A DNA stretch of 43,579 nt from Fidelibacterota bacterium (GCA_002701645.1 NZWP01000012.1:1-43579), one strand, 5' to 3'; shown: positions 4,109 through 39,354, numbered from the stretch's first letter. The notes: generated from the sequence alone by a model not told the origin. Numbers and translations: made by a program.

Positions 4109-7100
4109 TTACTTAACAAGTAACATTTTCATGGTCTTATTAAAATCTTTTGTACGAAGTTGATAGAAGTATACACCACTACTTAATGTATCGCCATCAT
4201 CATTCTTACCATCCCATTCTACAGTATAAATTCCTACACTATTTTCACCTTGATCAATTGTTTTCACTAATTGTCCCAGTGTATTGTAGATATAAATCTT
4301 AACAGAAGTTGCTTCTGCTACATCATACTTCAATGTTGTCTGATTACTAAATGGATTTGGATAATTTTGATAGAGTTTAAATTCATCTGGAGTGCCAAGT
4401 TCAATTATACCATTACCAGCTGCTCCATCTTTAGAGAATAATTGGTAACTCACTTCAACTGTGGATCTAGGTGCATCTCCATCAATATAGATAAATAATT
4501 CTTTTTCATCTTTAGATAGTCTACCAAATTCAAACTCATAGGTTTCTTCAAGACTATCGTTGTTTTCTAGAATAATCATACTCTGATTATTCTTCGCTAC
4601 AGAGAATTGATATACATTACCTTCATTGACAATTTCAAATCGCCCAGCAGTAATATCATCTGGAAGAGTAATCTTAATTTGATTACCAAATAATTCTGCA
4701 GGGAAGTCAATTGGATTTAACTTTTGTTGTTCTTGAGATTCTGAGGTCTTACCTTGAGCTTTAGTCCACTGCCAGTTTCTAGTAAATACACTGATATCAT
4801 AAACATCACATGTACTATCTAGTGTTGGTGTAAGATAAGGACTAGTACCTGTTGCTGGTCCAATATCAACATTTGGCCATGCATTTACAAGAGAATTCAA
4901 GTCTTCAACATCTACATCCCAGTCATTATCATAATCACCTAGCATAGCTGTATAGGTTGTAAATCCACTAATGACAGCATCTGAGTTATTGCCACTTTCG
5001 TCAAATGCAGCAACTTTAAGATAATATTTGGTATAATCATCAAGAGTTAATCCAGTCAATGTTAAATTGGTTAAACCAACATCTTGATAAGATACAACAT
5101 CTGCTTCAAGATCTTGATCGGTTGTTCCAATACCCATGTAATAGTATGCTATTCCAACATTATCTGACCAACCATCAACACTGATTGTGATATCAGAAGT
5201 ACTTCTTACATATTCACTATCCTGTAAATCATTGATTGTAAATGTACCAGCAGTTGGACCAGTGCTATCTAATATATAGCTTACTTGATCAGAAATAGTT
5301 TCATTGCCATCATTATCCACTGCTCCTACCTTATAGTACCATTTTTCTCCTTGACTTAAATTATCATGAAGCAGTGAATCTACTCCAAAAGTTTGTCTAA
5401 AGACGAATGTCGTATCAGGCCAAGGCGTAGTAGAAGGAGATGTATAAAAATGCTCTGAATCAATATTTCCAAGAGTTCCTTGACCAAGCAAAGTATTAGC
5501 ATCGGGAGTAAAGTCATCTACCACACTTCCATAAACATTATAAGAAGCAAAATCTGATTCTCCATTTCTGTTCCAGAAAATAGCCACACCATCATCGCTA
5601 GGGTTCCATGCATCGTTTGCTGCATCATAAACTAGCTCTGCTTCAGCAGATACTCCTTGAGGAGCAAGTGGCGCACCATCCGTACTTAACTGGCCAGCTG
5701 ATAACAAGAAATTATCCCAGAATGAATAATTTTGTCCTACTGTTGTAATATGAATTGCAACTCGCACTTTTGTGCCTGCATATTGGCTTAAGTTATAAGT
5801 TTGTTGAGTCCATGTACTTGCGGTATCTTGCATGTTTGCTAACGTTACAGTGAAATCTGAAATAGAAGTACCTCCCGATGGTGATAATAATACGTCATAA
5901 ATTTCTGTTACACTTCCATCATTCATGTTGGTATAAAAACTCAAGATATTGTCTGTACCAGGTCTTAACCATAGTTCCGGACTAATTAACCAATCATCAG
6001 CAGTTCCAGCTGCAGCCATTCCTAATCCAGCCATCCAGTGACTGCCATCTGCAGCACCATATCCCGCAGTATAATACCACCATGAAAAATCATCAGCATC
6101 GGCATTAGTATTTATACGGCCAAATGCATGTACATCTCTTCTGCCATCAGCCCAACCATATGGATTAGTTTCAAATCCTTCTTCCCACAAAGTATCTTGT
6201 TGAGCCGTTGCCCAAATAATATTGTTTTTTGTAACTGTATCAGAATTTGATCCATCAGATACAGTTAAACCAACATTATACTGTCCTGTAGAAGTATATA
6301 TATGTGATGGAGATTGTTCGGTACTTGCAGCAGATCCATCCCCGAAATCCCAAGCCCATGAAGTAGGTGCTCCTGTTGATCTATCAGTAAATTGTACTGT
6401 CAATGGAAATATGCCTGAAGTTTTATCTGGAGTATATGCAGCATTTAATGGGGCTGTAGAAGTAAATCCTGTAGAATAAAATAATCCTCTACCATGGGTT
6501 CCAGCAGCTAGCGCATTATCAGATGATCTTCTTACCAACATATCCGTTCTTACATTTGCTAGACCATCATTTGATGGATTCCATGTAGGGCTTGAAACAG
6601 AAATATCATCAGAAACCCATGTTCCAAGTTCAGTAGCTAAGATTACCTGGTTATAATTATTTGGATTATATAATCCCCAACGAACAGGCATATCAGCAAG
6701 ATCACCTTCAATATCCATCCATCCATTGGCTCCACCACCACCTATTGTTTCCCAAACTGAAGGCAATCCATAATTTGATACAGTGACTAATATTTGGTTG
6801 TCATCTTTTCCAATATCAATTGATGTGATATATCCATTAACATTAGATCCGCTAATATCAGTAGCAGTATAGCTGCTTGTATGCGCATCAGTGATTTTGA
6901 AGACTCTCCCAGCTGATGTTCCAACAAAAAGGACTCCATCGGTATGAGGTGACATTTTAAAGGCTGATGCTGTAGCACCTAGAGATACACTCATAAGTGT
7001 TTTATCAGCTAAAGTGGCATAATTATTTAATCTTAAAATTGTGCTAGCATCTACAGCAGAGTAAAATGCTTGATTAGTAGGATCAATTGTAGATGGATTA

Positions 7101-8860
7101 ATAAAGAAACCTGTATCACCCCCATCACTTGCGTCATGGTTTGCGTATAAGGAGAAGCTTGATCCTCCATTAGTACTTCTATAAATAGTGTTATATGTTG
7201 TTGCGGTAAATTGATAGCTTGGATCAACTTGATCAATATGAGTATATGCTCCATCTCCACCAACCACACGAGACCCACTTTGAATTTCTGTAGCACTAAT
7301 TGTCCAAGTACCGTTGTCTTGAGTTCCACCAATTACATATTGGCTTCCAGCATCAGGATGTAATGCAACAGAATAAAATTGACTAACATTATAGCCGGTA
7401 TTTCTATTTGATACAGTTACTCCTGCATCATTTGTATAAAATATACCTCCATCATTGGAAAAAATAATTTCATTACTTGTAATAGTTTTTAGATTTTGTT
7501 GATCAACGTGCATTGATGCAGTTCCTGAACCACCACCCGTTACTTGTGTCCAGCTAGCACCAGCATCAGTAGTTTTAAATATATCAAGCTCTCCAGCATA
7601 AACAGTATTTGGATCACTTGGATCAACTCCTAAACTCAAGTCATATCCAGCCTGTCCGTTTGCATCTCCTAAGACATCTCCATTTGCATCTATAGGAAAT
7701 GGATCAGAACCTCCGGCAGTGTAAAAAGTCCAATTTGCGCCACTATCTGTTGTTTTAACAATCCATTGAATTTTTCTTGTATCGCTACTAGCAACCATAC
7801 CATAGACAGTATTTGGATCAGAAGGGGCAACTGCGATTATAGTTCTGTTTCCTGAACCAATAAATCCTAAAGAGGCTCTTGTCCAATTTGTACCATCATC
7901 AGAATAAAAAATATCACCACCACCATCACCGTATACGTTAGTTCTCGATCCAGCCCAAAGTCTGTTATCGCTACCCATATCTAAATCCATAATTTCATAA
8001 GGAGTACCATTAGAAGTAGCATCCATTACTTGTGTCCATGTAGCACCGCCATCAGCAGATCTCCATAAACCAGTATTCGCAGATCCATGCCATTTACCTT
8101 CATAATAATGTCCACCAACCCCAGCATAAACAACACTTGTCCCTGATTCATTTCTAACAACAATATCAGTAACATAATTAAAATTCTCAGTAGCAGTTAA
8201 ATGAGTCCAAGTAGCACCACCATCAGTTGTTTTCCATATACCTAATCCACGACTAGATGTTGAGAAAATTCCCATTCTTTCTCCGGTACCAACATACATT
8301 GTATTAGTATCATTTGGATCAGAGTTAATACTACCAACTGCTAAATTACCCCATGTACCATCTACTGAATTCCATGTTGGACTGGCAGCTGTAATATCAT
8401 TCGTATACCATAATCCTCCAGTAACTCCTGCAGCCCATAATTTTTTCTTTGTAGAATCATTAGGATCGATAAGGATTGCTCTAGTTCTACCTCCAATAGT
8501 ATTAGGACCTCTTTCAACCCAATTTACTTCAGTCATTCTTTTTGCATAAGAAAGACTCATACGTTTTTGTTCTGCAAACTCTACAGCATCTAATATACGC
8601 TCTGTTGGAATAGTTCCTGTGCTTGGATCGTACATCATAAGATAATCATGTGCACCTTTTAAATCTGGACGTAATGCTTTAGGTAATTCTTTACTATCTT
8701 TATAAGATAAAGTTTGTCTTTTAGCAAGAAAGTCATTGATAAATGCTTCTTGTGTTAAGCGATTTTGTTCACCTAAATAATTTGTAATATTTTGTTTAAT
8801 CGATTGAAACCCAATAAGTCCAACCATAGTAAAAGCAATTATATAATGTAGTTTTTTCAT
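4109..8860 (-). CDS. 1583-aa secreted multidomain protein: tandem BNR/sortilin(GH74-like) beta-propeller region, PKD, choice-of-anchor-J/MAM-like module, Ig/FN3-like modules, dockerin-like module, T9SS C-terminal sorting domain
   Basis: Signal peptide MKKLHYIIAFTMVGLIGF. Residues ~110-800 (nt 6461-8533) begin WVERGPNTIGGRTRAILIDPND and carry at least 7 Asp-box/BNR motifs (TTDGGATWTH, SADGGATWTQ, SDDGTNWTR, TTDSGANWTF, TTDAGASWTQ, STNGGSSFS). A PKD domain with WDFGDGS lies at aa ~805-885 (nt 6206-6448). A module with the DDWLISP motif lies at aa ~890-1055 (nt 5696-6193). See the separate dockerin and CTD entries. Confidence 0.9.
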   Translation of the reverse strand: MKKLHYIIAFTMVGLIGFQSIKQNITNYLGEQNRLTQEAFINDFLAKRQTLSYKDSKELPKALRPDLKGAHDYLMMYDPSTGTIPTERILDAVEFAEQKRMSLSYAKRMTEVNWVERGPNTIGGRTRAILIDPNDSTKKKLWAAGVTGGLWYTNDITAASPTWNSVDGTWGNLAVGSINSDPNDTNTMYVGTGERMGIFSTSSRGLGIWKTTDGGATWTHLTATENFNYVTDIVVRNESGTSVVYAGVGGHYYEGKWHGSANTGLWRSADGGATWTQVMDATSNGTPYEIMDLDMGSDNRLWAGSRTNVYGDGGGDIFYSDDGTNWTRASLGFIGSGNRTIIAVAPSDPNTVYGMVASSDTRKIQWIVKTTDSGANWTFYTAGGSDPFPIDANGDVLGDANGQAGYDLSLGVDPSDPNTVYAGELDIFKTTDAGASWTQVTGGGSGTASMHVDQQNLKTITSNEIIFSNDGGIFYTNDAGVTVSNRNTGYNVSQFYSVALHPDAGSQYVIGGTQDNGTWTISATEIQSGSRVVGGDGAYTHIDQVDPSYQFTATTYNTIYRSTNGGSSFSLYANHDASDGGDTGFFINPSTIDPTNQAFYSAVDASTILRLNNYATLADKTLMSVSLGATASAFKMSPHTDGVLFVGTSAGRVFKITDAHTSSYTATDISGSNVNGYITSIDIGKDDNQILVTVSNYGLPSVWETIGGGGANGWMDIEGDLADMPVRWGLYNPNNYNQVILATELGTWVSDDISVSSPTWNPSNDGLANVRTDMLVRRSSDNALAAGTHGRGLFYSTGFTSTAPLNAAYTPDKTSGIFPLTVQFTDRSTGAPTSWAWDFGDGSAASTEQSPSHIYTSTGQYNVGLTVSDGSNSDTVTKNNIIWATAQQDTLWEEGFETNPYGWADGRRDVHAFGRINTNADADDFSWWYYTAGYGAADGSHWMAGLGMAAAGTADDWLISPELWLRPGTDNILSFYTNMNDGSVTEIYDVLLSPSGGTSISDFTVTLANMQDTASTWTQQTYNLSQYAGTKVRVAIHITTVGQNYSFWDNFLLSAGQLSTDGAPLAPQGVSAEAELVYDAANDAWNPSDDGVAIFWNRNGESDFASYNVYGSVVDDFTPDANTLLGQGTLGNIDSEHFYTSPSTTPWPDTTFVFRQTFGVDSLLHDNLSQGEKWYYKVGAVDNDGNETISDQVSYILDSTGPTAGTFTINDLQDSEYVRSTSDITISVDGWSDNVGIAYYYMGIGTTDQDLEADVVSYQDVGLTNLTLTGLTLDDYTKYYLKVAAFDESGNNSDAVISGFTTYTAMLGDYDNDWDVDVEDLNSLVNAWPNVDIGPATGTSPYLTPTLDSTCDVYDISVFTRNWQWTKAQGKTSESQEQQKLNPIDFPAELFGNQIKITLPDDITAGRFEIVNEGNVYQFSVAKNNQSMIILENNDSLEETYEFEFGRLSKDEKELFIYIDGDAPRSTVEVSYQLFSKDGAAGNGIIELGTPDEFKLYQNYPNPFSNQTTLKYDVAEATSVKIYIYNTLGQLVKTIDQGENSVGIYTVEWDGKNDDGDTLSSGVYFYQLRTKDFNKTMKMLLVK
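4112..4372 (-). other. T9SS (Por) C-terminal sorting domain of the giant protein (aa ~1497-1583)
   Basis: LYQNYPNPFSNQTTLKYDV...VKIYIYNTLGQLVKTI...YTVEWDGKNDDGDTLSSGVYFYQLRTKDFNKTMKMLLVK matches the textbook TIGR04183-type CTD pattern (QNYPNPF, IYN.LGQ, W.G....G.....GVYFY, KM.L.K). Confidence 0.9.
4769..4945 (-). other. dockerin-like module of the giant protein (aa ~1306-1364)
   Basis: GDYDNDWDVDVEDLNSLVNAW is a 12-residue EF-hand-like Ca loop with Asp at positions 1, 3, 5, 7, 9 and 12, followed by a helix. Next comes the linker PNVDIGPATGTSPYLTP, then a degenerate second segment LDSTCDVYDISVFTRNW. This layout resembles the duplicated segments of a type I dockerin. Confidence 0.6.
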
Positions 8861-8864
8861 AATG

Positions 8865-9893
8865 TTATTCTAGTATTAAGTATCCGTTTTCTAATCCATT
8901 GACTGTAATGCCTGAACCATCTATGTCTAACATGATAGTATCAGCACTGTCAAAATTAATATTTGTATTCGTTGAACCATTTACTGTAAAGTTTACTGTA
9001 GCAATCACACCATCTCCATCAGAAGTTGGTTGGTCACTAGATAGGGAAGAAGTATAAATAGTCACTTCGCCATTACTCTCATCTTTAGTAACAATAAATA
9101 ATGGATCAGTATTTCCTTGTAAGAAATCACCAGCAGTAACATCACCAATAGTTACCGCACTTGCATCATAAGTTAGTTTTGCTTGTGCTGCAGCTAGGCC
9201 AGTCACACCCATTACTTTGATATCCAATGCAACACTAGCTCCCGTAGAAGTATCTGTATACTTTGAATCTAAAATCATTGCTGGAGTTTGAATATCAGTC
9301 AATGTTATATAAGCGGATGTATTGGCAGTATTAGATCCGCCTTCACCAGTTACGCTTAATGAAACATCATAACTTCCTGCACTACTATAGGTGTGAATCG
9401 GTGAATCTTCTGAGCTAGTTGTTCCATCACCAAAATTCCAACTTGATTGGGTATATTGCGATGATGTGTTTGTAAACTGAACACGTAATTCAGGAGTTCC
9501 TGATGTAGGTGCTCCAAAAAATGCTGCAGTTGGTGCAATTGCATTTACTGTGATATAATCAATCTTTGTTGTAGTATCAGTTCCTCCACTTCCTGTAACA
9601 GTCAATGAAACAGAATATGTTCCTGTAGTACTATATGTATATGATACAGAAGTACCTGATGCATCTGGAGATCCATCATTATCAAAATCCCATACAGTAG
9701 TCGTTGCATTAGTAGATCCAGATAAAAATCCAACTGTTAAAGGTACGGGTCCAGATACTGGAGTTCCTGCAAAAATTGCTACTGGCGCTGGATCAGTAGG
9801 TTCTGTTCCGCCGCCGCCATCGCCGCCGCCGCCGCCACCACCACCGCAACTAATCAATAAAACTAAAAATAATGATAAGAGTTTTTTTAGCAT
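8865..9893 (-). CDS. lipoprotein with poly-Gly tether, two PKD domains and a C-terminal cohesin-like domain
   Basis: Lipobox LLIS-C16 follows a hydrophobic signal peptide and is followed by GGGGGGGGDGGGG. PKD1 covers aa ~37-117 (WDFDNDGS) and PKD2 covers aa ~121-199 (WNFGDGT). The stop lies 4 nt upstream of the giant gene's start, so the two genes are probably co-transcribed. Confidence 0.85.
   Translation of the reverse strand: MLKKLLSLFLVLLISCGGGGGGGGDGGGGTEPTDPAPVAIFAGTPVSGPVPLTVGFLSGSTNATTTVWDFDNDGSPDASGTSVSYTYSTTGTYSVSLTVTGSGGTDTTTKIDYITVNAIAPTAAFFGAPTSGTPELRVQFTNTSSQYTQSSWNFGDGTTSSEDSPIHTYSSAGSYDVSLSVTGEGGSNTANTSAYITLTDIQTPAMILDSKYTDTSTGASVALDIKVMGVTGLAAAQAKLTYDASAVTIGDVTAGDFLQGNTDPLFIVTKDESNGEVTIYTSSLSSDQPTSDGDGVIATVNFTVNGSTNTNINFDSADTIMLDIDGSGITVNGLENGYLILE
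8868..9284 (-). other. cohesin-like domain (aa ~204-342 of the lipoprotein)
   Basis: GASVALDIKVMGVTGLAAAQAKLTYDASAVTIGDVTAGDFLQGNTDPLFIVTKDESNGEVTIYTSSL...GDGVIATVNFTV follows the cohesin pattern (V.V.V..V..L.g.Q..L.YD...L....V..G.FL ... G.I ... G.G.la...F.V). Confidence 0.6.
9807..9848 (-). repeat. GGN trinucleotide tract (mostly GGC) encoding Cys16 plus G8-D-G4; a local GC-rich island
   Basis: The plus strand reads ccgccgccgccatcgccgccgccgccgccaccaccaccgca. It is the only long GC-rich run I noticed while reading this AT-rich window. Confidence 0.85.
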
Positions 9894-9894
9894 G

Positions 9895-9924
9895 AGTCAT
9901 AAATCTACAATAATTCTTATGACT
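9895..9924 (-). promoter_or_regulatory. 8-bp stem / 14-nt loop hairpin ending 1 nt before the lipoprotein start codon
   Basis: AGTCATAA (9895-9902) is the exact reverse complement of TTATGACT (9917-9924). On the minus-strand RNA the 3' arm is followed by C then AUG. No U-tract follows the hairpin. Confidence 0.25.
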
Positions 9925-9944
9925 TTGCCATAAAACTCTTTAAA

Positions 9945-11033
9945 TCAAAGAGTCTTTTCTGAGATTATGACATTTCTTTGATGTAAATATTGTAAAATAA
10001 ATTGCATGCAATCAGGTTTTGCACCAACCATTTCTGGAGGAAAGACTCCATATTCACTCCATAAATTTTCTAAAATTAAATTGATACTAGCTGTTGCAGT
10101 ATATCCTGTAGTACGTGCCATAGAAGAGGTTTGACTTGTTAAATCAAATTCATCATATAAATGATAAGTAATCATTTTCATCTCACCTTTAATAATAATA
10201 TCAAGAACAGTAAATTCTATTTCATTCTTATCTAGTTTCCATTCTTCAAATAATTTCTTAGATGTTTCAGCAATATTGTTATTATTAAATAAACCTTTAT
10301 TGCGATAATCAAGCATCAATTCTGCATGACCAGGATAGCGTAATGTTTTTTCTTTTAAGTTTGGGATATGATTCATTGTTGAAAGTAATGAGCGTAATCC
10401 ATCAGTATTAAATGCTTCTAATTGACCAGCATCCTCAAATTCCATTGTTTCTATATCAGATAAGGCAGGTTCAGTAACGACTTCATAATCTATTAACATC
10501 CTTGCAGGTCGTGTATACTCTTCAATTACGTCTATAGGCGAGAAAGGAGCCTTATAATTAAATGGAGGTTGCGGATTTTTAGGAAGTCCGCCCACATAAT
10601 ATTCAAATGATTCAATATTTAATTGTGCATCCCAATAGCCTAGTAGATAATTAGGAATTCCAGGAGCCACCCCAGCATCAACAATCACAGTCACACCTTT
10701 TTCTTTTGCTAAGTTATTAAGATCTAATATATTTTCTGGCGAGAAAGATATATCAACTACATTTTTCCTACTATTGATAATTGTTTTTAATGCGTTATAA
10801 CCTAAAAATCCAGGTACTGCTAATAATACAATGTCAGCTGGTTCAATCCACTTTGCAAGAGATTTTTCATCAGTAACATCTAGTTGAGATATTTGAATGT
10901 TGTGATTTTGAGATTGGATATCTTCAAGAGTCTTAAGGTTATAATCGGCAAGAAAAAGATTGTGATTTCTTGAAAGATCGGCAGCCATTGCACTTCCAAT
11001 CATTCCAGCTCCAATTTGATAAATATTTTTCAT
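9945..11033 (-). CDS. saccharopine dehydrogenase-family NAD(P)-binding oxidoreductase
   Basis: The ATG at 11033 gives MKNIYQIGAGMIGSAMAADL (Rossmann GxGxxG). Length and a central/C-terminal Sacchrp_dh-like layout fit the family. The ORF-track TTG start at 11066 would run through the terminator hairpin. Confidence 0.75.
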   Translation of the reverse strand: MKNIYQIGAGMIGSAMAADLSRNHNLFLADYNLKTLEDIQSQNHNIQISQLDVTDEKSLAKWIEPADIVLLAVPGFLGYNALKTIINSRKNVVDISFSPENILDLNNLAKEKGVTVIVDAGVAPGIPNYLLGYWDAQLNIESFEYYVGGLPKNPQPPFNYKAPFSPIDVIEEYTRPARMLIDYEVVTEPALSDIETMEFEDAGQLEAFNTDGLRSLLSTMNHIPNLKEKTLRYPGHAELMLDYRNKGLFNNNNIAETSKKLFEEWKLDKNEIEFTVLDIIIKGEMKMITYHLYDEFDLTSQTSSMARTTGYTATASINLILENLWSEYGVFPPEMVGAKPDCMQFILQYLHQRNVIISEKTL

Positions 11034-15167: not shown

Positions 15168-16043
15168 ATGAAATCAATCCTTATTAGTAATCTAGTTTCT
15201 GGAATGAAGCTTCAAGGCTTCTATCTTTGCATAGAAAAAAAATTGAGAAGAAAAAAAGATAGCTCTATTTATCTTGATTTATTATTACAAGATAAATCAG
15301 GATTAATAAGAGCCCGTATATGGGATAACGTAGAATCTTTATCAAAAAAGTTTGATGTAGGAAATCCTGTTGCTATTAAAGGTAGTACTTATAAATACGG
15401 TGATAGTATTTTTATTAAAATAAAGAATATCACGAGAGCATCTATTGAAAAATATGCAAAGTATGGTTTTAGTTCATCTGATTTAATACCAAGTTCAAAA
15501 AAAAATCCAAAACAATTATGGAATCATTTGATCAAGGAAATTGATCAAATATCTAAAATTCATTTAAAGCAATTGGTAAAGAAAATATTAGCAGACCATA
15601 AACAAAAATTTCAGATTTATCCAGCTAGCATTTCATATCAGTATAATTATCAAAATGGTTTGATTGAGCAAACTGTTTCATTGATTAAGATTTCTAAAAT
15701 TTTAGGAAAGCATTATAAGGTGGATACAGACCTACTATTAACCGGAGCCTGTTTACATCAAATTGGGAAATTGTATTCAATTAATATGGGATTTTCTCAG
15801 GCAAAATCAAATGAGAGACAATTGGTAGGCAATGCTATATTATCTAGGGATATCGTTAATAATTATATTAGAAAAATAAAGCGTTTTCCAGATCAAGATA
15901 AAGTAAGATTAGAGCACTTAATTTTATCTTATCAAGGAAGGAAAGAGTGGCAAAGTCCTATTGAACCTCAAACTTTGGAAGCAGTCCTATTGCATACAAT
16001 TAACTATATGGATTCACAGGTTAATGTCATGAGCAAGAAATGA
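15168..16043 (+). CDS. YhaM-like OB-fold + HD-domain protein with substituted HD metal ligands (probable pseudo-nuclease)
   Basis: The OB-fold segment YLDLLLQDKSGLIRARIWD resembles the YhaM segment FLTLMLQDQSGDIEAKLWD. The HD-domain scaffold is retained (YPAS..., LHQIGK, LILSYQGRKEWQSP, LLHTINYMDS), but the expected His/Asp positions are Gln/Tyr/Asn. Confidence 0.7.
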   Translation: MKSILISNLVSGMKLQGFYLCIEKKLRRKKDSSIYLDLLLQDKSGLIRARIWDNVESLSKKFDVGNPVAIKGSTYKYGDSIFIKIKNITRASIEKYAKYGFSSSDLIPSSKKNPKQLWNHLIKEIDQISKIHLKQLVKKILADHKQKFQIYPASISYQYNYQNGLIEQTVSLIKISKILGKHYKVDTDLLLTGACLHQIGKLYSINMGFSQAKSNERQLVGNAILSRDIVNNYIRKIKRFPDQDKVRLEHLILSYQGRKEWQSPIEPQTLEAVLLHTINYMDSQVNVMSKK

Positions 16044-17629
16044 CTAATAAGCTTATTTTAGTTTATCTTCTAACTATATCTATATTATTTGGGCAAAGCC
16101 ATATTAGTTATGATCTTTCAAATCAATTTGGGGTTGTTTTGGATAACAATCAGATTATTTGGGATAATGATGAAAGGTTTGACGATTTATTAATTGACAG
16201 GTCATCTACATATTTTAACAATAAATTCTCTTCTTTTGATTTTAATAGCATGCCAAGTGATTCTTCTTATGTAAAAAGTAAATTTCAATATGAATTTGGA
16301 GATTATGGTTTTGATAGATTAAATATTGGACTTAAAAAGCGTTCTGAGAAAAGTGATTTTCAGTTTTTAGGAATGAAGAAAAGTTTTTTTGGTAATTATT
16401 CAGAATTTGCCAATGCAGATTCTAGTCCGCTGAGTTTATTCTATAAACTTGATTATAGCGCTAGAGTATCAGATCATGAGCTTTATTTCTCTGCTGGATA
16501 TTTTAGAGAAGATTCAAAGTTTATTTTTGATAATCAATCGGGTTTAGATACATCTATTAATAAAGAATTTTCTGATTTTTTTTCACTAACAGTTGGAGAT
16601 ATTTTTGTAAAAAATGATTGGAAGTATAATGTTGAGATTAATCATATCAGTAAATATGATAAAAGAAAAATTGTTGAATATCCGATTAATCATGAGGTAG
16701 ATATTCAAAGAAATAGATTTAATATGAAGGCAGCTAATGGTAAGCATATTTCAATAGACGCTTTTTTAGATAATAAATATTATGTAGATAAAGTATCCTC
16801 AAAAACATATAGTAGGAATACATTACAATTATCCAATAATAACAAACTTCCGTTGGGACAACTAAAGTATGGTATTGATTATATTGGCGATAAAGTCAGT
16901 CCAAATATTGCTTATAATGCTACGTTCGGTTCAGTTGAGTTCTTGATTAAAAGAGAAAATAAGCCTACTAGATTACTATTTGATTCTTACGAATTTAATG
17001 GCTTTAACGATGAAAAAGTAGAAAATTGGGATTCATTAATTTTAAACTATTATTTAAATACAAAAATTGATTTAGTTTCAAGTTTAAGATTTATTCAAGC
17101 AAATAATGTGGCTGCTAATTACATATTAGGAGAAGTTTCAATTCCTGAAGATGATGGATATCGTTTTCTTTCTGATGATATGTTGTCGCTCAAAACAAAA
17201 ATTTCAATATCTTTAAAAGAAAATAAAATAAATTTAATTCATTATCATAATTTTTATGATAGTCTTATTAGTTCCAATAGATCTGATATCATAGAAATGG
17301 ACTATCATTTTAACACTTCTTTTGTTGATAAAAAACTAGGAGTTGCTGGAAAGCTTTCAGTGATATATTTATCGGCTAATCATTCTCAGTATTCTTTTGA
17401 CTACTTTAGAAATATGCCTATATCAAATAATAGTACAAACTATAATAATAGCTATAATATTGGACTAGATTTAGATATCTCAATTGCAGATGTTCTTTTG
17501 ACAGTGCGATTTAAAAATGCACTTGATCGATTGCCAGTTGATGGAGACTATTCTATCAATAATGCTGAGCTATTCAATCCGATGAACAGCCTTCTATCTT
17601 TTGGTATTATTTGGGAATTTGACGATTAA
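16040..17629 (+). CDS. hypothetical secreted protein, putative outer-membrane beta-barrel
   Basis: Signal peptide MTNKLILVYLLTISILFGQ, alternating hydrophobic/polar strands rich in Y/N/S/D/F, and a C-terminal aromatic strand LLSFGIIWEFDD. The ATGA overlap with the upstream gene suggests translational coupling. I recognise no family. Confidence 0.4.
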   Translation: MTNKLILVYLLTISILFGQSHISYDLSNQFGVVLDNNQIIWDNDERFDDLLIDRSSTYFNNKFSSFDFNSMPSDSSYVKSKFQYEFGDYGFDRLNIGLKKRSEKSDFQFLGMKKSFFGNYSEFANADSSPLSLFYKLDYSARVSDHELYFSAGYFREDSKFIFDNQSGLDTSINKEFSDFFSLTVGDIFVKNDWKYNVEINHISKYDKRKIVEYPINHEVDIQRNRFNMKAANGKHISIDAFLDNKYYVDKVSSKTYSRNTLQLSNNNKLPLGQLKYGIDYIGDKVSPNIAYNATFGSVEFLIKRENKPTRLLFDSYEFNGFNDEKVENWDSLILNYYLNTKIDLVSSLRFIQANNVAANYILGEVSIPEDDGYRFLSDDMLSLKTKISISLKENKINLIHYHNFYDSLISSNRSDIIEMDYHFNTSFVDKKLGVAGKLSVIYLSANHSQYSFDYFRNMPISNNSTNYNNSYNIGLDLDISIADVLLTVRFKNALDRLPVDGDYSINNAELFNPMNSLLSFGIIWEFDD

Positions 17630-33902: not shown

Positions 33903-35246
33903 ATGGCTAATTCAATTTCATTAAAAACAATAGAGAAATTTCAAAAAAAATGTGAATCAGATAATCATGTTAAGGTAGTAAGAAATGCAATGATTCGTAC
34001 TGATTTAAGTGATTTAACCATGAATTGGGATCGTTATAGAAATATAAACCATTCTTTTTCTAATGTTGTGAAAGGGGAAATGCCAGTTACTAACCAAAAA
34101 TCTAGTGGAAGGTGCTGGGGGTTTGCTGGATTAAATTTGTTTAGATTTTATATTGGCAGAAAACATAATTTGAAAAATTTTGAGTTTTCTCAGAGCTATT
34201 TTATGTTTTGGGATAAGCTAGAAAAAGCAAATTATTTTTTAGAATGCATTATAGATTCTGCGTCTGAAGATTGGAATAGTCGAATAGTAATGCATCTTCT
34301 TTCAAATCCAATTGAAGATGGCGGACAGTGGGATATGTGGGTTAGTTTAATTGATAAATATGGCGTCATTCCACAGTCAGAAATGTCAGAGTCATTCTCA
34401 TCGAGCCAGTCAGCTACAATGAATCGAATGATTGCTCGCAAACTTCGTGAAAATGCAAAAGATTTGCGCCAAAATATAGGTAAAGGCGTTTCAGGCGACG
34501 ATTTAGAATCTATTAAAACAGATATGTTAGAGGAGATCTATAAGATGCTTGCAATGCATATTGGATCCCCCCCAACTTCATTTAATTGGCAAGCTCATGA
34601 TAAAAAGAAGAAGTTTATTAGTTTTGAAAATTTAACTCCTAAATCTTTTTTTGATAATCATGTTGGATTGAATCTTGATGAATACGTATGTCTTATCAAT
34701 TGTCCTATGGAAGATAAGGAGTATAGAAAAGTTTATACTGTTGAAGCACTTGGAAATGTTGTTGAAGGAAATTCAGTTCGATATCTTAATGTGACAAGCG
34801 AAGAAATGAAAGCTGCATCAGCGAGCTCTATCAAAGATAATCACCCAGTATGGTTTGGTTGTGATGTTGGAAAGCATTTTGATAGAAAAATAGGAGTCAT
34901 GGATATAGATTTATTTGACTTTAATTCTTTTTATCAATCAGAATTTTCTATGAATAAAGCCGATCGTTTACAGTATGGAGAAAGTCAAATGACCCATGCA
35001 ATGCTTTTCACTGGAGTAGATCTAGATGCCGATGATAAACCTATCAAATGGCGAGTAGAAAATAGTTGGGGTGATAAAGTTGGAGAGAAAGGTTATCATA
35101 TTATGTCAGATCAATGGTTTGATGAATACAATTATGAAGTTGTTGTACATAAAGATTACCTATCTGATGACTTATATAATCTTTATAAGAACGAAGAAGC
35201 TATTCCTTTAAAGCCGTGGGACCCAATGGGTTCTTTAGCAAAATAG
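33903..35246 (+). CDS. pepC: aminopeptidase C / bleomycin hydrolase (peptidase family C1B)
   Basis: Catalytic Cys context NQKSSGRCWGFAG, catalytic His context MTHAMLFTGVD, and ENSWG; 447 aa. Confidence 0.9.
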   Translation: MANSISLKTIEKFQKKCESDNHVKVVRNAMIRTDLSDLTMNWDRYRNINHSFSNVVKGEMPVTNQKSSGRCWGFAGLNLFRFYIGRKHNLKNFEFSQSYFMFWDKLEKANYFLECIIDSASEDWNSRIVMHLLSNPIEDGGQWDMWVSLIDKYGVIPQSEMSESFSSSQSATMNRMIARKLRENAKDLRQNIGKGVSGDDLESIKTDMLEEIYKMLAMHIGSPPTSFNWQAHDKKKKFISFENLTPKSFFDNHVGLNLDEYVCLINCPMEDKEYRKVYTVEALGNVVEGNSVRYLNVTSEEMKAASASSIKDNHPVWFGCDVGKHFDRKIGVMDIDLFDFNSFYQSEFSMNKADRLQYGESQMTHAMLFTGVDLDADDKPIKWRVENSWGDKVGEKGYHIMSDQWFDEYNYEVVVHKDYLSDDLYNLYKNEEAIPLKPWDPMGSLAK

Positions 35247-38016: not shown

Positions 38017-39354
38017 ATGTTGAAAATAAAAGTTAAAAAAGGTCACAACATTAACATTGCTGGAGTAGCCTCTAGAGAAATTTCAGCACCTCAAAAAAAT
38101 GATTCCGTTTCTTTGTCTCCTGAAAATTTTAGATACATCAAACCAAAGCTTTTGGTTAAAGAAAATGATGTTGTAAAGTTAGGAGATCCTATATTCTTTG
38201 ATAAGTTATGCCCTGAGGTAAAATGGCCAGCTATTGCATCTGGTAAGATTTCAAAAATTGTTTATGGCGAACGAAGATCAATAAAAGAAATTATTTTTAG
38301 TGTTGATACTAGCCTTGAAAGTGAACACTCTAGTAGCCAGCAAAAAAAAATATCTAATAGAGATGATGTAGTTAACTATTTATTAGAAAAAAATATGTGG
38401 CCTTTTATTACACAAAGACCATTTAATAAAGTTGCAAATCCTTCAGATAATCCAAAATCTATTATTGTCAGTTTAGCAAATACTGCCCCGTTGTCAGTTG
38501 ATTATAATTTTACATTGTTATCAAATAAAGATACAATTGTTAGTGCTTTAGCAAATTTAAAGAAATTGACAGAAGGAAAACTATTTGTAGCTGTGAATCC
38601 TGGTGAATTTGATTATTTATCTGATTTAGATTTTGTAGATGTTATCCAAGTAGAAGGGCCGCATCCTGCTGGAAATGTAGGAGTTGTACTTAATCACATT
38701 AGCCCTATTAATAGCAAAGATGTTGTGTGGACAGTACAAGGACATCACTTACCTATTCTTGGCAAATTATTTTCTGATGGCGTATTTGATCCATGTATTA
38801 CTATAAATTTGAGTGGACCTGCTGTGAATGATCCTTCTTATTTTAAATCAAGAATCGGTGCTTCATTAGAATCTTATTGTAAAGGGAATGTATCTAGTGA
38901 TCAAGTAAGAATTATTTCTGGAGATGTGTTGACAGGTAAGCAATCTTCTATAGATGGATATTTAGGATTTTATCATTCTTCTATATCTGTAATTGAAGAA
39001 TCTTTTGATAGATCATTTATAGGCTGGTTCCACCCTGGAGGTTCATCAAGGTATAGTGTTTTCAATGCATACTTAGGAAGCAATAAATCTCCTTATAAGT
39101 TTACTACTCTTCAAAATGGTAGTCATAGAGCTTTTGTGCCCATTGGAGCTTGGGAGAAAGTATTTCCGATGAATATTTATATTAATGCATTGCTTCGTAG
39201 TATTGAAGCAAACGACTTCGAAGAAATGGAACAATTAGGTATTTACGAATGCGATGAAGAAGATGTAGCATTATGTTCATTCGTATGTCCGAGTAAAACA
39301 GATGTAGGTGGAATAATTAGAAAGGGACTAGATACAATCTATTTTGATAAATAA
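38017..39354 (+). CDS. nqrA: Na+-translocating NADH:quinone oxidoreductase subunit A
   Basis: An I-K-x-K-K-G-x-x-I-x-I-A-G N-terminus, the C-terminal LGIYECDEEDVALCSFVCPSK motif, and its position at the head of nqrBCDEF. Confidence 0.95.
   Translation: MLKIKVKKGHNINIAGVASREISAPQKNDSVSLSPENFRYIKPKLLVKENDVVKLGDPIFFDKLCPEVKWPAIASGKISKIVYGERRSIKEIIFSVDTSLESEHSSSQQKKISNRDDVVNYLLEKNMWPFITQRPFNKVANPSDNPKSIIVSLANTAPLSVDYNFTLLSNKDTIVSALANLKKLTEGKLFVAVNPGEFDYLSDLDFVDVIQVEGPHPAGNVGVVLNHISPINSKDVVWTVQGHHLPILGKLFSDGVFDPCITINLSGPAVNDPSYFKSRIGASLESYCKGNVSSDQVRIISGDVLTGKQSSIDGYLGFYHSSISVIEESFDRSFIGWFHPGGSSRYSVFNAYLGSNKSPYKFTTLQNGSHRAFVPIGAWEKVFPMNIYINALLRSIEANDFEEMEQLGIYECDEEDVALCSFVCPSKTDVGGIIRKGLDTIYFDK

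What the first reader, a model, noticed from the sequence alone, without database searches (positions are those of the whole stretch)
4109..9893. Cohesin-bearing lipoprotein directly upstream of a dockerin-bearing T9SS giant protein: a candidate two-gene surface-tethering module
Two adjacent minus-strand genes, separated by 4 nt, carry what look like complementary halves of a cohesin-dockerin pair. The 342-aa product has a lipobox Cys, a 13-residue Gly-rich tether, two PKD domains and a C-terminal cohesin-like beta-sandwich (aa ~204-342). The 1583-aa product has a dockerin-like module (aa ~1306-1364) with one canonical 12-residue Ca loop, DYDNDWDVDVED, and one degenerate second segment. That module sits about 130 aa upstream of a textbook T9SS C-terminal sorting domain. 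Non-cellulosomal cohesins and dockerins are known, but I do not recognise this arrangement as a described system: a dedicated lipoprotein scaffold genetically paired with a type IX secretion cargo. One hypothesis is that the T9SS exports the cargo and removes its CTD, after which the dockerin-like module near the new C-terminus docks onto the lipid-anchored cohesin. This would be a protein-based alternative to A-LPS attachment. This is the only clearly accessory island in the window.
Basis: partly seen in the sequence, partly recalled or inferred. Interest (0 to 1): 0.7.

Follow-up and report, generated by a model that had tools for sequence, protein, structure and literature searches.

The report
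Lipoprotein anchor for secreted giant proteins
In an abundant ocean bacterium (Marinimicrobia/SAR406), a small membrane-anchored protein ending in a cohesin 'socket' is always encoded beside a giant secreted surface protein carrying a dockerin 'plug', and the same pairing recurs across related phyla, pointing to an undescribed way of holding type IX-secreted proteins on the cell surface.

Summary
Genes 8865-9893(-) and 4109-8860(-), 4 nt apart, encode a lipoprotein (LISC lipobox, Gly tether, 2 PKD, Pfam-significant cohesin) and a 1583-aa protein with a type A T9SS sorting domain. Pfam Dockerin_1 does not detect the dockerin-like module. A profile of its wider family does hit solved dockerins (best E 0.003; 17 of 22 hits), and AlphaFold models two loop-helix units at pLDDT above 90.

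Two corrections. The ~130 aa between module and sorting domain is itself a cohesin-like beta-sandwich. The locus is a conserved syntenic part of the genome, not an accessory island.

The main extension: dockerin + cohesin-like domain + sorting domain form a C-terminal cassette found in at least 498 protein clusters with unrelated N-terminal parts. In all 19 loci where the operon boundary was visible (about ten architectures, one cassette protein named Gemmatimonadota), a small cohesin lipoprotein is encoded alongside, often with a DUF5683 membrane protein.

Functional linkage is therefore strongly supported. Physical binding, surface exposure of the lipoprotein, and binding in trans versus in cis remain untested. 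No co-fold could be run, and a co-variation test was uninformative. I found no description of this arrangement in the literature. Verdict: a new variant of cohesin-dockerin anchoring.

The parts
9846..9893 (-). Lipoprotein signal peptide with lipobox L-I-S-C (aa 1-16; Cys16 is the lipidated residue)
   Evidence: Read from the translation. Cys16 and the following Gly run are invariant in 12 homologues.
9807..9845 (-). Gly-rich tether GGGGGGGGDGGGG (aa 17-29)
   Evidence: Translation; conserved in the alignment.
9540..9788 (-). First PKD domain of the lipoprotein (aa ~36-118)
   Evidence: Pfam PKD_4/PKD, two stretches, E 1e-25.
9303..9536 (-). Second PKD domain of the lipoprotein (aa 120-197)
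   Evidence: Pfam PKD_4 best stretch 120-197.
8868..9284 (-). C-terminal cohesin domain of the lipoprotein (aa ~204-342)
   Evidence: Pfam Cohesin PF00963 at 45.7-49.2 bits against GA 24.1. Weak sequence hits to solved cellulosomal cohesins 4ums_A and 4uyp_A (E 0.002-0.003).
8861..8864 (-). 4-nt intergenic gap (TAA catt ATG), compatible with translational coupling
   Evidence: Sequence. The same 3-4 nt gap, or an overlap, is seen in L001, L085, L087, L092, L116 and L172.
8792..8860 (-). N-terminal signal-peptide-like segment of the cargo (aa 1-23: MKK + hydrophobic stretch)
   Evidence: Read by eye from the translation; not tested with a predictor.
6461..8533 (-). BNR / Sortilin-VPS10 / GH74-like beta-propeller region of the cargo (aa ~110-800)
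   Evidence: Pfam Sortilin-Vps10 at 44.9 bits against GA 33. Ortholog profile hits 6p2m_A (E 1.3e-14), 3b7f_A and 5fzp_A. NCBIfam F510_1955-like partial match.
6227..6409 (-). PKD domain of the cargo (aa 818-878)
   Evidence: Pfam PKD_4, E 2.4e-16.
5720..6112 (-). Choice-of-anchor J / cleaved-adhesin-like domain (aa 917-1047)
   Evidence: NCBIfam NF038128 at 65 bits against 30; Pfam Cleaved_Adhesin at 25.3 against 21.4.
4751..4945 (-). Divergent dockerin module (aa 1306-1370). First F-hand loop DYDNDWDVDVED (aa 1309-1320, nt 4901-4936) followed by a helix; second, degenerate loop TPTLDSTCDVYD followed by a helix.
   Evidence: Motif located; conserved in 116/117 orthologues. Family profile hits solved dockerins. 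AF2 pLDDT 91-95 with helices after each loop. No Pfam Dockerin_1 hit.
4397..4699 (-). Cis cohesin-like beta-sandwich between the dockerin and the CTD (aa ~1388-1488)
   Evidence: AF2 beta-sandwich, model residues 93-193. Pfam Cohesin hits the equivalent domain in 5/24 family members. hhalign against the lipoprotein cohesin family: 84% / E 8e-6 and 57% / E 1e-4. The spacer HMM hits lipoprotein cohesins directly. The window's own copy gives no Pfam hit.
4112..4363 (-). T9SS type A C-terminal sorting domain (aa 1500-1583)
   Evidence: TIGR04183 at 42 bits against 23; PF18962 at 31.8 against 27; FlgD_ig at 49 bits. AF2 beta-sandwich, model residues 213-286.

Best explanation
This is a conserved two-gene module (three genes in many relatives) of FCB-group bacteria.

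Gene 1 encodes a small outer-membrane lipoprotein whose only constant part is a C-terminal cohesin. Between lipid anchor and cohesin it carries a variable spacer: Gly tether plus two PKD domains here, an FN3-like domain or just a ~25-aa acidic linker elsewhere.

Gene 2 encodes a very large surface protein with a variable N-terminal part (here BNR/Sortilin/GH74-like propellers, PKD, a choice-of-anchor-J/adhesin-like domain and further beta-rich regions with no family hit). It ends in a constant ~290-aa cassette: divergent dockerin, cohesin-like beta-sandwich, type A T9SS sorting domain.

Most likely mechanism:
1. Sec export of both proteins (inferred from the signal peptides).
2. The cargo crosses the outer membrane through the T9SS by means of its CTD, which is then removed (inferred from the established behaviour of type A CTDs).
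3. The dockerin, now near the new C-terminus, binds the cohesin of the lipid-anchored partner non-covalently, probably with Ca2+, so the cargo stays on the cell surface at a distance set by the lipoprotein's spacer (inferred).
4. The cis cohesin-like domain either packs against and stabilises the dockerin until hand-over, or offers a socket for the dockerin of a further cassette protein (speculative).

Shown: domain identities, the cassette, and conservation of the gene pairing. Inferred: every physical step.
For: Cohesin above Pfam threshold in the window lipoprotein and in the partner lipoproteins of L089, L171 and L172 (39.2, 31.3 and 36.5 bits). All 13 partners tested match a lipoprotein-cohesin HMM; three of them (L171-L173, 60-113 bits) were not in its training set.

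The module is related to true dockerins at family-profile level and in predicted secondary structure.

The T9SS CTD is present in 24/24 cassettes scanned.

The cassette occurs in 498 clusters at E<=1e-3, with the module end 209-260 aa from the C-terminus in most, on proteins of 350-4700 aa with unrelated N-terminal domains.

A same-strand cohesin lipoprotein lies in the same gene cluster (immediately adjacent in most) in all 19 loci with a visible boundary. Gaps of -35 to +4 nt are common, which suggests co-translation.

Because the cargo N-termini are unrelated, the only thing the partners have in common is the cassette, and the canonical ligand of a cohesin is a dockerin.

The acidic residues straight after the lipidated Cys in short-form partners resemble the Bacteroidota surface-export signal in character (PMC5080379).
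Against: Pfam Dockerin_1 does not recognise the module. The second Ca loop in the window copy has Thr at positions 1 and 3.

The cargo has its own cohesin-like domain ~20 residues after the dockerin, and AF2 gives pTM 0.78 for the three-domain cassette, which suggests fixed cis packing that could occupy the dockerin.

The mirror-tree correlation cohesin-dockerin (r 0.81; 0.75 with one sequence per type) is no higher than cohesin-CTD (0.88; 0.86).

The lipoprotein's topology is unknown, and the window's form (C-GGGGGGGG) lacks the acidic post-Cys signal.

No T9SS machinery genes lie in the window. Their presence in this genome was not checked.

Type A CTD cargo is classically anchored through A-LPS (PMC9143113), so a second anchor is not strictly needed.
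Confidence: 0.5

Rival explanations
1. Cis clasp. The dockerin binds the cohesin-like domain of its own polypeptide, making a rigid pre-CTD stalk or an extended sorting/attachment signal. The lipoprotein's cohesin then recognises something else in the cassette or another ligand, or acts only as a spacer or receptor.
For: The dockerin and the cohesin-like domain are separated by only ~20 residues, at invariant spacing across the family. AF2 pTM is 0.78 with pLDDT 72-78 in the linker. The dockerin's Trp residues are invariant or nearly so across the whole family, whatever the partner lipoprotein. The dockerin is much more conserved (28-86% identity) than the lipoprotein cohesins (12-93%).
Against: It does not explain why a separate cohesin lipoprotein is co-encoded in every assessable locus. 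Inter-domain contacts in the model could not be inspected, as no coordinates or PAE were available. The cis domain is a much weaker cohesin match than the lipoprotein's.
Confidence: 0.2
2. Periplasmic escort. The lipoprotein faces the periplasm (the default for diderm lipoproteins). It captures the folded cargo by its dockerin before export, keeping it tethered near the outer membrane or T9SS translocon, or preventing premature interactions, and releases it on secretion.
For: Surface exposure of lipoproteins needs a dedicated signal (PMC5080379), and the window form lacks the acidic post-Cys residues. T9SS cargo folds in the periplasm and uses shuttle or carrier proteins (PMC12618676, abstract seen). 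The frequently co-encoded DUF5683/LpoB-CsgG-like protein has periplasm/envelope-type domains.
Against: PKD and FN3-like spacers and long Gly tethers are typical of outward-facing stalks. Short-form partners do carry acidic post-Cys residues. All precedents for cohesin-dockerin pairs are extracellular.
Confidence: 0.15
3. Daisy chain. The lipoprotein cohesin anchors the first cargo. Each cargo's own cohesin-like domain then accepts the dockerin of the next cassette protein, building chains or a surface layer of different giant proteins from a single lipid anchor.
For: Every cassette has one plug and one socket, while the lipoprotein has only a socket. There are hundreds of cassette-protein clusters. 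Some proteins carry 2-3 modules (P0328, P0330). Chains of proteins that carry both modules are known from adaptor scaffoldins and C. perfringens glycosidases (from memory). Foldseek rank 2 is the GH84C cohesin-FN3 structure 2w1n.
Against: Purely architectural inference. Most loci pair one lipoprotein with one cargo, which suggests a dedicated 1:1 relationship. Canonical cohesin homology of the cis domain is only moderate.
Confidence: 0.1
4. No interaction. The adjacency reflects only co-regulation of two independent surface proteins that happen to carry common extracellular domains.
For: PKD, cohesin-like and Ig-like domains are common in surface proteins. No direct interaction evidence exists.
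Against: The pairing survives complete replacement of the cargo's N-terminal architecture and of the lipoprotein's spacer. It also survives changes of gene order (upstream or downstream) and spread across phyla. Chance adjacency in 19 of 19 assessable loci is implausible.
Confidence: 0.05

Closest known systems
Cell-surface anchoring scaffoldins of cellulosomes (for example C. thermocellum SdbA/OlpB with SLH domains; R. flavefaciens ScaE with a sortase signal) - from established knowledge; reviews PMC12484212, PMC5429695
   Same: A cell-envelope-anchored protein presents a cohesin that holds a dockerin-bearing extracellular protein non-covalently on the cell surface.
   Different: Those systems are Gram-positive and anchor through SLH domains or sortase. 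They are usually multi-cohesin and serve plant-cell-wall enzymes. Here the organism is a diderm and the anchor is a lipoprotein with a single cohesin. The cargo is T9SS-secreted, carries an additional cis cohesin-like domain and has no clear CAZyme identity, and the dockerin is too divergent for Pfam.
Cellulosome-like system inferred in Cloacimonadota 'Ca. Stygibacter' (Williams et al. 2021, PMC8542988)
   Same: An FCB-group bacterium that combines cohesin and dockerin proteins with a T9SS CTD for surface display.
   Different: The topology is reversed. There a 3755-aa scaffoldin with tandem cohesins carries the CTD, and enzymes carry C-terminal dockerins. Here the dockerin-bearing cargo carries the CTD and the cohesin sits on a separate small lipoprotein. 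No gene-pair rule was reported there.
Type B CTD cargo anchored by adjacent PorP/SprF-like outer-membrane proteins (Gorasia et al. 2022, PMC9143113)
   Same: A T9SS cargo held on the surface by a dedicated, often adjacently encoded, protein partner, with no A-LPS involved.
   Different: That cargo has a type B CTD and the partner is a PorP-like beta-barrel that binds the CTD itself. Here the CTD is type A, the partner is a lipoprotein, and the proposed contact is cohesin-dockerin upstream of the CTD.
Non-cellulosomal cohesin-dockerin pairs, for example Clostridium perfringens glycoside hydrolase complexes (2w1n; Adams et al. 2008, from memory) and the survey of Peer et al. 2009 (cited in PMC8542988; not held in the library)
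   Same: Cohesin and dockerin modules are used outside cellulose degradation to assemble large extracellular proteins, and some proteins carry both modules. 2w1n is Foldseek rank 2 for the cassette model.
   Different: Those are Gram-positive secreted enzymes, with no lipid anchor, no T9SS and no conserved two-gene arrangement.
A-LPS attachment of type A CTD proteins by the PorU sortase in Porphyromonas gingivalis (PMC9143113; Lasica 2017, cited in PMC8542988)
   Same: The same class of sorting domain, and the same problem solved: keeping secreted cargo on the cell.
   Different: That linkage is covalent, to a lipopolysaccharide. Here a non-covalent protein-protein tether is proposed. Whether these organisms make A-LPS or have PorU was not tested.

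Membership tests
Cohesin (Pfam PF00963) | Score above the curated gathering threshold of the family HMM | tested here: met
   Lipoprotein aa 214-315: 45.7 bits (49.2 on the isolated domain) against 24.1. Partner lipoproteins of L089, L171 and L172 also pass; L090 scores 17.3 bits, below threshold.
Cohesin (Pfam PF00963) | Binds a dockerin through its flat beta-sheet face | not testable with these tools
   No co-fold was possible (structure cap reached) and no experiment.
Cohesin - the cis domain of the cargo (aa ~1388-1488) | Recognisable homology to the cohesin family | tested here: inconclusive
   The window copy gives no Pfam hit. Equivalent domains of 5/24 relatives hit PF00963, best E 1.4e-5. 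hhalign against lipoprotein cohesins: 84% / E 8e-6 and 57% / E 1e-4. The spacer HMM hits lipoprotein cohesins at E<1e-3. The spacer profile against PDB finds nothing significant. AF2 gives a beta-sandwich.
Dockerin type I (Pfam PF00404) | Score above the curated threshold of the family HMM | tested here: not met
   No hit at E<=10 on the isolated segment. None precomputed in 120 orthologues. Only 3/24 relatives reach E 0.02 or weaker.
Dockerin (fold/superfamily level) | Tandem pair of F-hand units: a 12-residue Ca-binding loop (Asp/Asn at positions 1, 3, 5, 9, 12), each followed by a helix | tested here: met
   Loop 1 DYDNDWDVDVED is fully canonical. Loop 2 keeps positions 5, 9 and 12 (TPTLDSTCDVYD here..LDGSADIND in most orthologues). 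AF2 puts helices directly after each loop, pLDDT 91-95. In the family profile against PDB, 17/22 hits are dockerins, best E 0.0033, aligned across both units.
Dockerin (fold/superfamily level) | Ca2+-dependent folding and cohesin binding | not testable with these tools
   Needs ITC or pull-down with and without EDTA.
T9SS type A C-terminal sorting domain (TIGR04183 / PF18962) | Score above curated cut-off, located at the extreme C-terminus | tested here: met
   TIGR04183 at 42 bits against 23; PF18962 at 31.8 against 27; aa 1500-1580 of 1583. The type B model TIGR04131 scores only 15.1 against 35.
T9SS type A C-terminal sorting domain (TIGR04183 / PF18962) | T9SS machinery (SprA/Sov, PorV, PorU, GldKLMN) encoded in the same genome | not tested
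   None in the 43.6-kb window.
Bacterial lipoprotein (signal peptidase II substrate) | N-terminal signal peptide ending in a lipobox [LVI][ASTVI][GAS]C | tested here: met
   MLKKLLSLFLVLLISC; Cys invariant. Partners in other loci: LLSC, ISC, VGC, SGC, YSC, IGC. No dedicated predictor was run.
Surface-exposed Bacteroidota-type lipoprotein | Lipoprotein export signal K-(D/E)2 or Q-A-(D/E)2 just after the Cys (PMC5080379) | tested here: inconclusive
   Window form: C-GGGGGGGG-D, no match. Short-form partners: C-DIPEE, C-EVPTE, C-ELAEPE, which are acidic but not the published consensus. The signal is defined for Bacteroidota, not Marinimicrobia.
Cellulosome | Scaffoldin with multiple cohesins that integrates several dockerin-bearing plant-cell-wall-degrading enzymes | tested here: not met
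   Single cohesin per lipoprotein. One cargo per locus, with propeller, adhesin, LamG, cadherin or LRR-type N-termini and no confident CAZyme catalytic domain.

The most novel reading that the evidence does not exclude
FCB-group bacteria outside the well-studied Bacteroidota (Marinimicrobia, Gemmatimonadota and others) have a general, previously undescribed system for displaying T9SS cargo. It uses a modular C-terminal 'dockerin + cohesin-like + type A CTD' cassette that can be appended to any giant surface protein. A dedicated cohesin lipoprotein receives the cargo on the outer face of the cell, and a frequently co-encoded DUF5683 membrane protein is a third component. The plug-and-socket cassette may also allow cargos to chain onto one another. 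This would be a protein-based counterpart of A-LPS attachment for type A CTD proteins.
Probability: 0.4. Interest if true: 0.8.

Novelty: new variant of a known kind. Interest (0 to 1): 0.72.

Why it matters
How T9SS cargo is retained on the cell is understood only for a few Bacteroidota: A-LPS linkage for type A CTDs and PorP-like partners for type B. Marinimicrobia/SAR406 are among the most abundant uncultured bacteria of the dark ocean, and their giant surface proteins are thought to mediate particle attachment and polymer degradation.

A conserved, easily recognisable anchor-cargo module would:
- give a rule for predicting which giant proteins are cell-bound;
- extend cohesin-dockerin biology to diderm lipoprotein anchors and to the T9SS;
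- assign a first functional context to a C-terminal cassette present in at least ~500 protein clusters, and to DUF5683;
- offer a compact natural plug-and-socket pair for surface display in Gram-negative hosts.

The hypothesis is directly testable with two small recombinant domains.

Tried and rejected
1. Pfam Dockerin_1 on the whole protein and on isolated segments: no hit.
2. phmmer of the module and a narrow 16-sequence profile against PDB: only chance hits such as xylose isomerase.
3. AF2 of the module alone with a shallow alignment: pLDDT 51.6, unusable for fold search.
4. Homologue search with a 129-aa fragment: only 9 candidates scored, uninformative.
7. Foldseek of the three-domain model: dominated by generic tandem beta-sandwich hits. 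The dockerin could not be searched on its own because models cannot be trimmed.
8. Spacer-only profile against PDB: nothing significant; the C. perfringens chain 2vo8_A, which I recall being a cohesin module, scores only E 0.63.
9. Mirror-tree co-variation between lipoprotein cohesin and dockerin: no signal above the phylogenetic background given by the CTD and spacer controls.
10. Search for a DUF5683-type or 'YDNPLD' motif in the window: none.
11. Literature searches for Marinimicrobia + cohesin/dockerin/T9SS and for DUF5683: nothing relevant.
12. 'Accessory island / horizontal transfer' reading of the raised GC at 5-10 kb: rejected because of strict synteny.

Full report
**1. What is in the sequence**

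The window holds two minus-strand ORFs at 8865-9893 (342 aa) and 4109-8860 (1583 aa). They are separated by TAA-catt-ATG.

The 342-aa product begins MLKKLLSLFLVLLISC, followed by GGGGGGGGDGGGG. It carries two PKD domains and a C-terminal cohesin that passes Pfam's curated threshold (45.7 bits on the whole protein, 49.2 on the isolated domain, cut-off 24.1). The lipobox Cys and the Gly run are invariant in twelve homologues down to 54% identity.

The 1583-aa product has these parts:
- a signal-peptide-like N-terminus (read by eye);
- a BNR/Sortilin-VPS10/GH74-like propeller region (Pfam 44.9 bits against 33; ortholog profile against 6p2m_A, E 1.3e-14);
- a PKD domain;
- a choice-of-anchor-J/cleaved-adhesin domain;
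- a stretch with no family hit;
- a type A T9SS sorting domain at the extreme C-terminus (TIGR04183 42 bits against 23).

The named homologues are from Candidatus Marinimicrobia/Neomarinimicrobiota/Fidelibacterota. The rest of the window is housekeeping: tRNA synthetases, ScpAB, Cmk, S1, TsaD, NQR.

**2. Is the module a dockerin?**

Pfam Dockerin_1 does not see it, even in isolation at E<=10. No orthologue has a precomputed hit. The single sequence and a narrow ortholog profile find no solved dockerin.

An exhaustive profile search showed otherwise. The segment is a mobile module present in 498 representative clusters at E<=1e-3 (81 at E<=1e-10), in proteins of 350 to 4700 aa. A 42-sequence profile of this wider family, searched against all PDB sequences, returns 22 hits, 17 of them genuine dockerins. 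2vn5_B (E 0.0033) is aligned across both repeat units; further hits include 2vn6_B, 2y3n_B, 8ajy_B, 2ccl_B, 5lxv_B, 6kge_D and 1ohz_B. The other five are EF-hand calcium-binding proteins and two serine-protease chains.

With the broader alignment, AlphaFold2 models the module at block-mean pLDDT 91-95 as loop-helix, beta-hairpin, loop-helix. In most orthologues the second loop reads ..LDGSADIND, closer to canonical than the window's TPTLDSTCDVYD.

I conclude it is a divergent dockerin at superfamily level. It is not a member of Pfam PF00404 as currently defined.

**3.

The distance from module end to C-terminus is nearly constant, 209-260 aa in most representatives and 218-225 aa in most of the marine loci. 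The module is therefore the first part of a fixed C-terminal cassette.

All 24 cassettes scanned end in a T9SS CTD. In 5 of 24 the intervening ~120-aa domain hits Pfam Cohesin (best E 1.4e-5). Further evidence on that intervening domain:
- Profile-profile comparison with the lipoprotein cohesin family gives 84% probability, E 8e-6 with deep alignments, and 57%, E 1e-4 over the full cohesin length with smaller ones.
- An HMM of the intervening domain hits lipoprotein cohesins directly.
- AF2 models it as a beta-sandwich. The whole three-domain cassette has mean pLDDT 88.8 and pTM 0.78.
- The window's own copy gives no Pfam hit, and a domain-only profile finds nothing significant in the PDB.

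I rate 'cohesin-like' as probable, not proven. The cargo therefore ends in dockerin + cohesin-like + CTD.

**4. Conservation of the pairing**

Within the window's orthologue group the lipoprotein gene directly precedes the cargo gene (gap of 3-4 nt, or an overlapping call in L004), in the same syntenic slot (saccharopine dehydrogenase | pair | SIS-CBS gene). This holds down to 53-54% protein identity (L001, L004, L085-88). So this is a conserved part of the genome, not an accessory island. The raised GC at 5-10 kb probably reflects the composition of these Gly/Thr/Asp-rich proteins.

The pairing also survives complete replacement of the cargo:

| Locus | Cargo | Partner lipoprotein |
|---|---|---|
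| L089 | 3033 aa; DUF5122/LamG/Big | 175 aa, LLSC + cohesin (39 bits) |
| L092 / L116 | 1878 / 1767+ aa | 202-204 aa, overlapping the cargo start |
| L127 / L147 / L157 | 676-679 aa, third gene of a three-gene form | 179 aa, first gene; a 1364-1496-aa protein with no cassette (no Pfam hit in the L127 copy scanned) lies between |
| L137 / L155 | 2724 / 1895 aa | partial cohesin ORF at the contig edge |
| L090 | 1238 aa | 260 aa, downstream; weak cohesin |
| L171 | 2364 aa; NHL/cadherin | 274 aa, downstream; 31.3 bits |
| L172 | 3902 aa | 282 aa; 36.5 bits |
| L173 | 2668 aa; LamG/pentraxin | 187 aa; 60 bits on my own HMM |
| L174 | 1795 aa; LRR | lipoprotein with cohesin, frameshifted in the assembly |

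Every partner has a lipobox. In all 19 loci where the edge of the gene cluster could be seen, a cohesin lipoprotein was present. The other ~70 metagenome loci are truncated inside giant genes and are uninformative. One cassette protein is named Gemmatimonadota.

A DUF5683 membrane protein, variously fused to LpoB/CsgG-like, PEGA, caspase-like or TPR parts, recurs just upstream of the cohesin gene. It is absent from the window. The searchable literature says nothing about its function.

**5. Mechanism**

The cargo N-termini are unrelated, so the feature the partner lipoprotein recognises must lie in the cassette. The canonical ligand of a cohesin is a dockerin.

After Sec and T9SS export and CTD removal, the dockerin docks onto the lipid-anchored cohesin, and the lipoprotein's variable spacer sets the stand-off distance. 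I put this at about 0.5.

The cis cohesin-like domain, together with the high pTM, keeps three alternatives alive:
- an intramolecular clasp (0.2);
- a periplasmic escort role for the lipoprotein (0.15);
- chaining of cargos through their own sockets (0.1).

A mirror-tree test on 13 pairs gave no cohesin-dockerin signal above the CTD and spacer controls. No co-fold could be run. Surface exposure is only hinted at, by acidic residues after the Cys in short-form partners (PMC5080379).

**6. Comparison with what is known**

- Cohesin-dockerin surface anchoring is well established in Gram-positive cellulosomes.
- A cellulosome-like system with a CTD-bearing scaffoldin has been inferred in Cloacimonadota (PMC8542988). 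That is the reverse topology.
- Protein-based anchoring of T9SS cargo exists for type B CTDs, through PorP-like proteins (PMC9143113).

I found no description of a cohesin lipoprotein paired with a type A CTD cargo, of the dockerin + cohesin-like + CTD cassette, or of cohesin/dockerin or T9SS cargo anchoring in Marinimicrobia.

I class this as a new variant of a known kind, of real interest because it is widespread, rule-like and directly testable.

Noticed in passing
L092:3677-4660, L127:2-451, L171:2257-5850, L172:3176-5200, L173:2264-3175, L174:2767-4263: A DUF5683 (PF18935) membrane protein with a PGxGQxYS motif lies immediately upstream of the cohesin-lipoprotein gene in many non-window loci. 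It is variously fused to LpoB/CsgG-like, PEGA, caspase-like or TPR parts and may be a third component of the system. It is absent from the window, and the literature says nothing about its function.
   Followed up: partly
L089:385-1044, L092:4660-5268, L116:1660-2274, L173:3179-3742, L174:4288-4743 (looser form in L127:438-977): Short-form partner lipoproteins share a conserved motif straight after the lipidated Cys, C-[DET]-x-[PY]-x-E-x-Y-[DE]-N-P-[LV]-D (the L127/L147 forms read C-ELAEPELNNPLD). It is acidic like the Bacteroidota lipoprotein export signal but distinct from it. The window's long form has a Gly run there.
   Followed up: partly
L127:438-7568, L147:872-7539, L157: A three-gene variant: cohesin lipoprotein, then a 1364-1496-aa secreted-looking protein with no cassette (no Pfam hit in the L127 copy scanned), then a 676-679-aa cassette protein. 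The middle protein may be a further partner.
   Followed up: partly
P0328 (4724 aa), P0330 (2766 aa), P0320: A few representatives carry two or three matches to the dockerin-like module, so multi-dockerin proteins exist in this family.
   Followed up: no
window 5000-10000: GC content is 0.37-0.40 here against ~0.30 in the rest of the window, although the locus is strictly syntenic in relatives. The likely cause is the amino-acid composition of Gly/Thr/Asp-rich surface proteins, not horizontal transfer.
   Followed up: partly
window 15168-16043 and 16040-17629 (+): Two overlapping ORFs (291 and 529 aa) downstream of Fur have no confident Pfam domain, yet ORFs of matching size occupy the same position in L001, L004, L085 and L087. 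They look like a conserved gene pair of unknown function specific to this clade.
   Followed up: no
L004:14521-15588: In this relative a second saccharopine-dehydrogenase-like gene lies between the cargo and the SIS-CBS gene. The cargo is also called about 130 aa longer (1716 aa), overlapping the end of the lipoprotein gene.
   Followed up: no
L159:9781-11752, L131:7501-7956: Tandem paralogous genes (309-343 aa, starting MKK..ISWGLNAQVALPTFQGA, with a weak glycine-rich-domain hit) follow one type of cassette gene.
   Followed up: no
window 33903-35246 (+): A Peptidase C1-like (bleomycin-hydrolase-type) cysteine peptidase scores 577 bits, and an NqrA gene starts an NQR cluster at 38017. Both are ordinary but fit a proteolytic, Na+-coupled lifestyle.
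   Followed up: no
L174:4288-6000: The cohesin lipoprotein gene in this assembly is frameshifted, and a run of N lies just upstream of the cargo gene. This is probably an assembly artefact and not a pseudogene.
   Followed up: no
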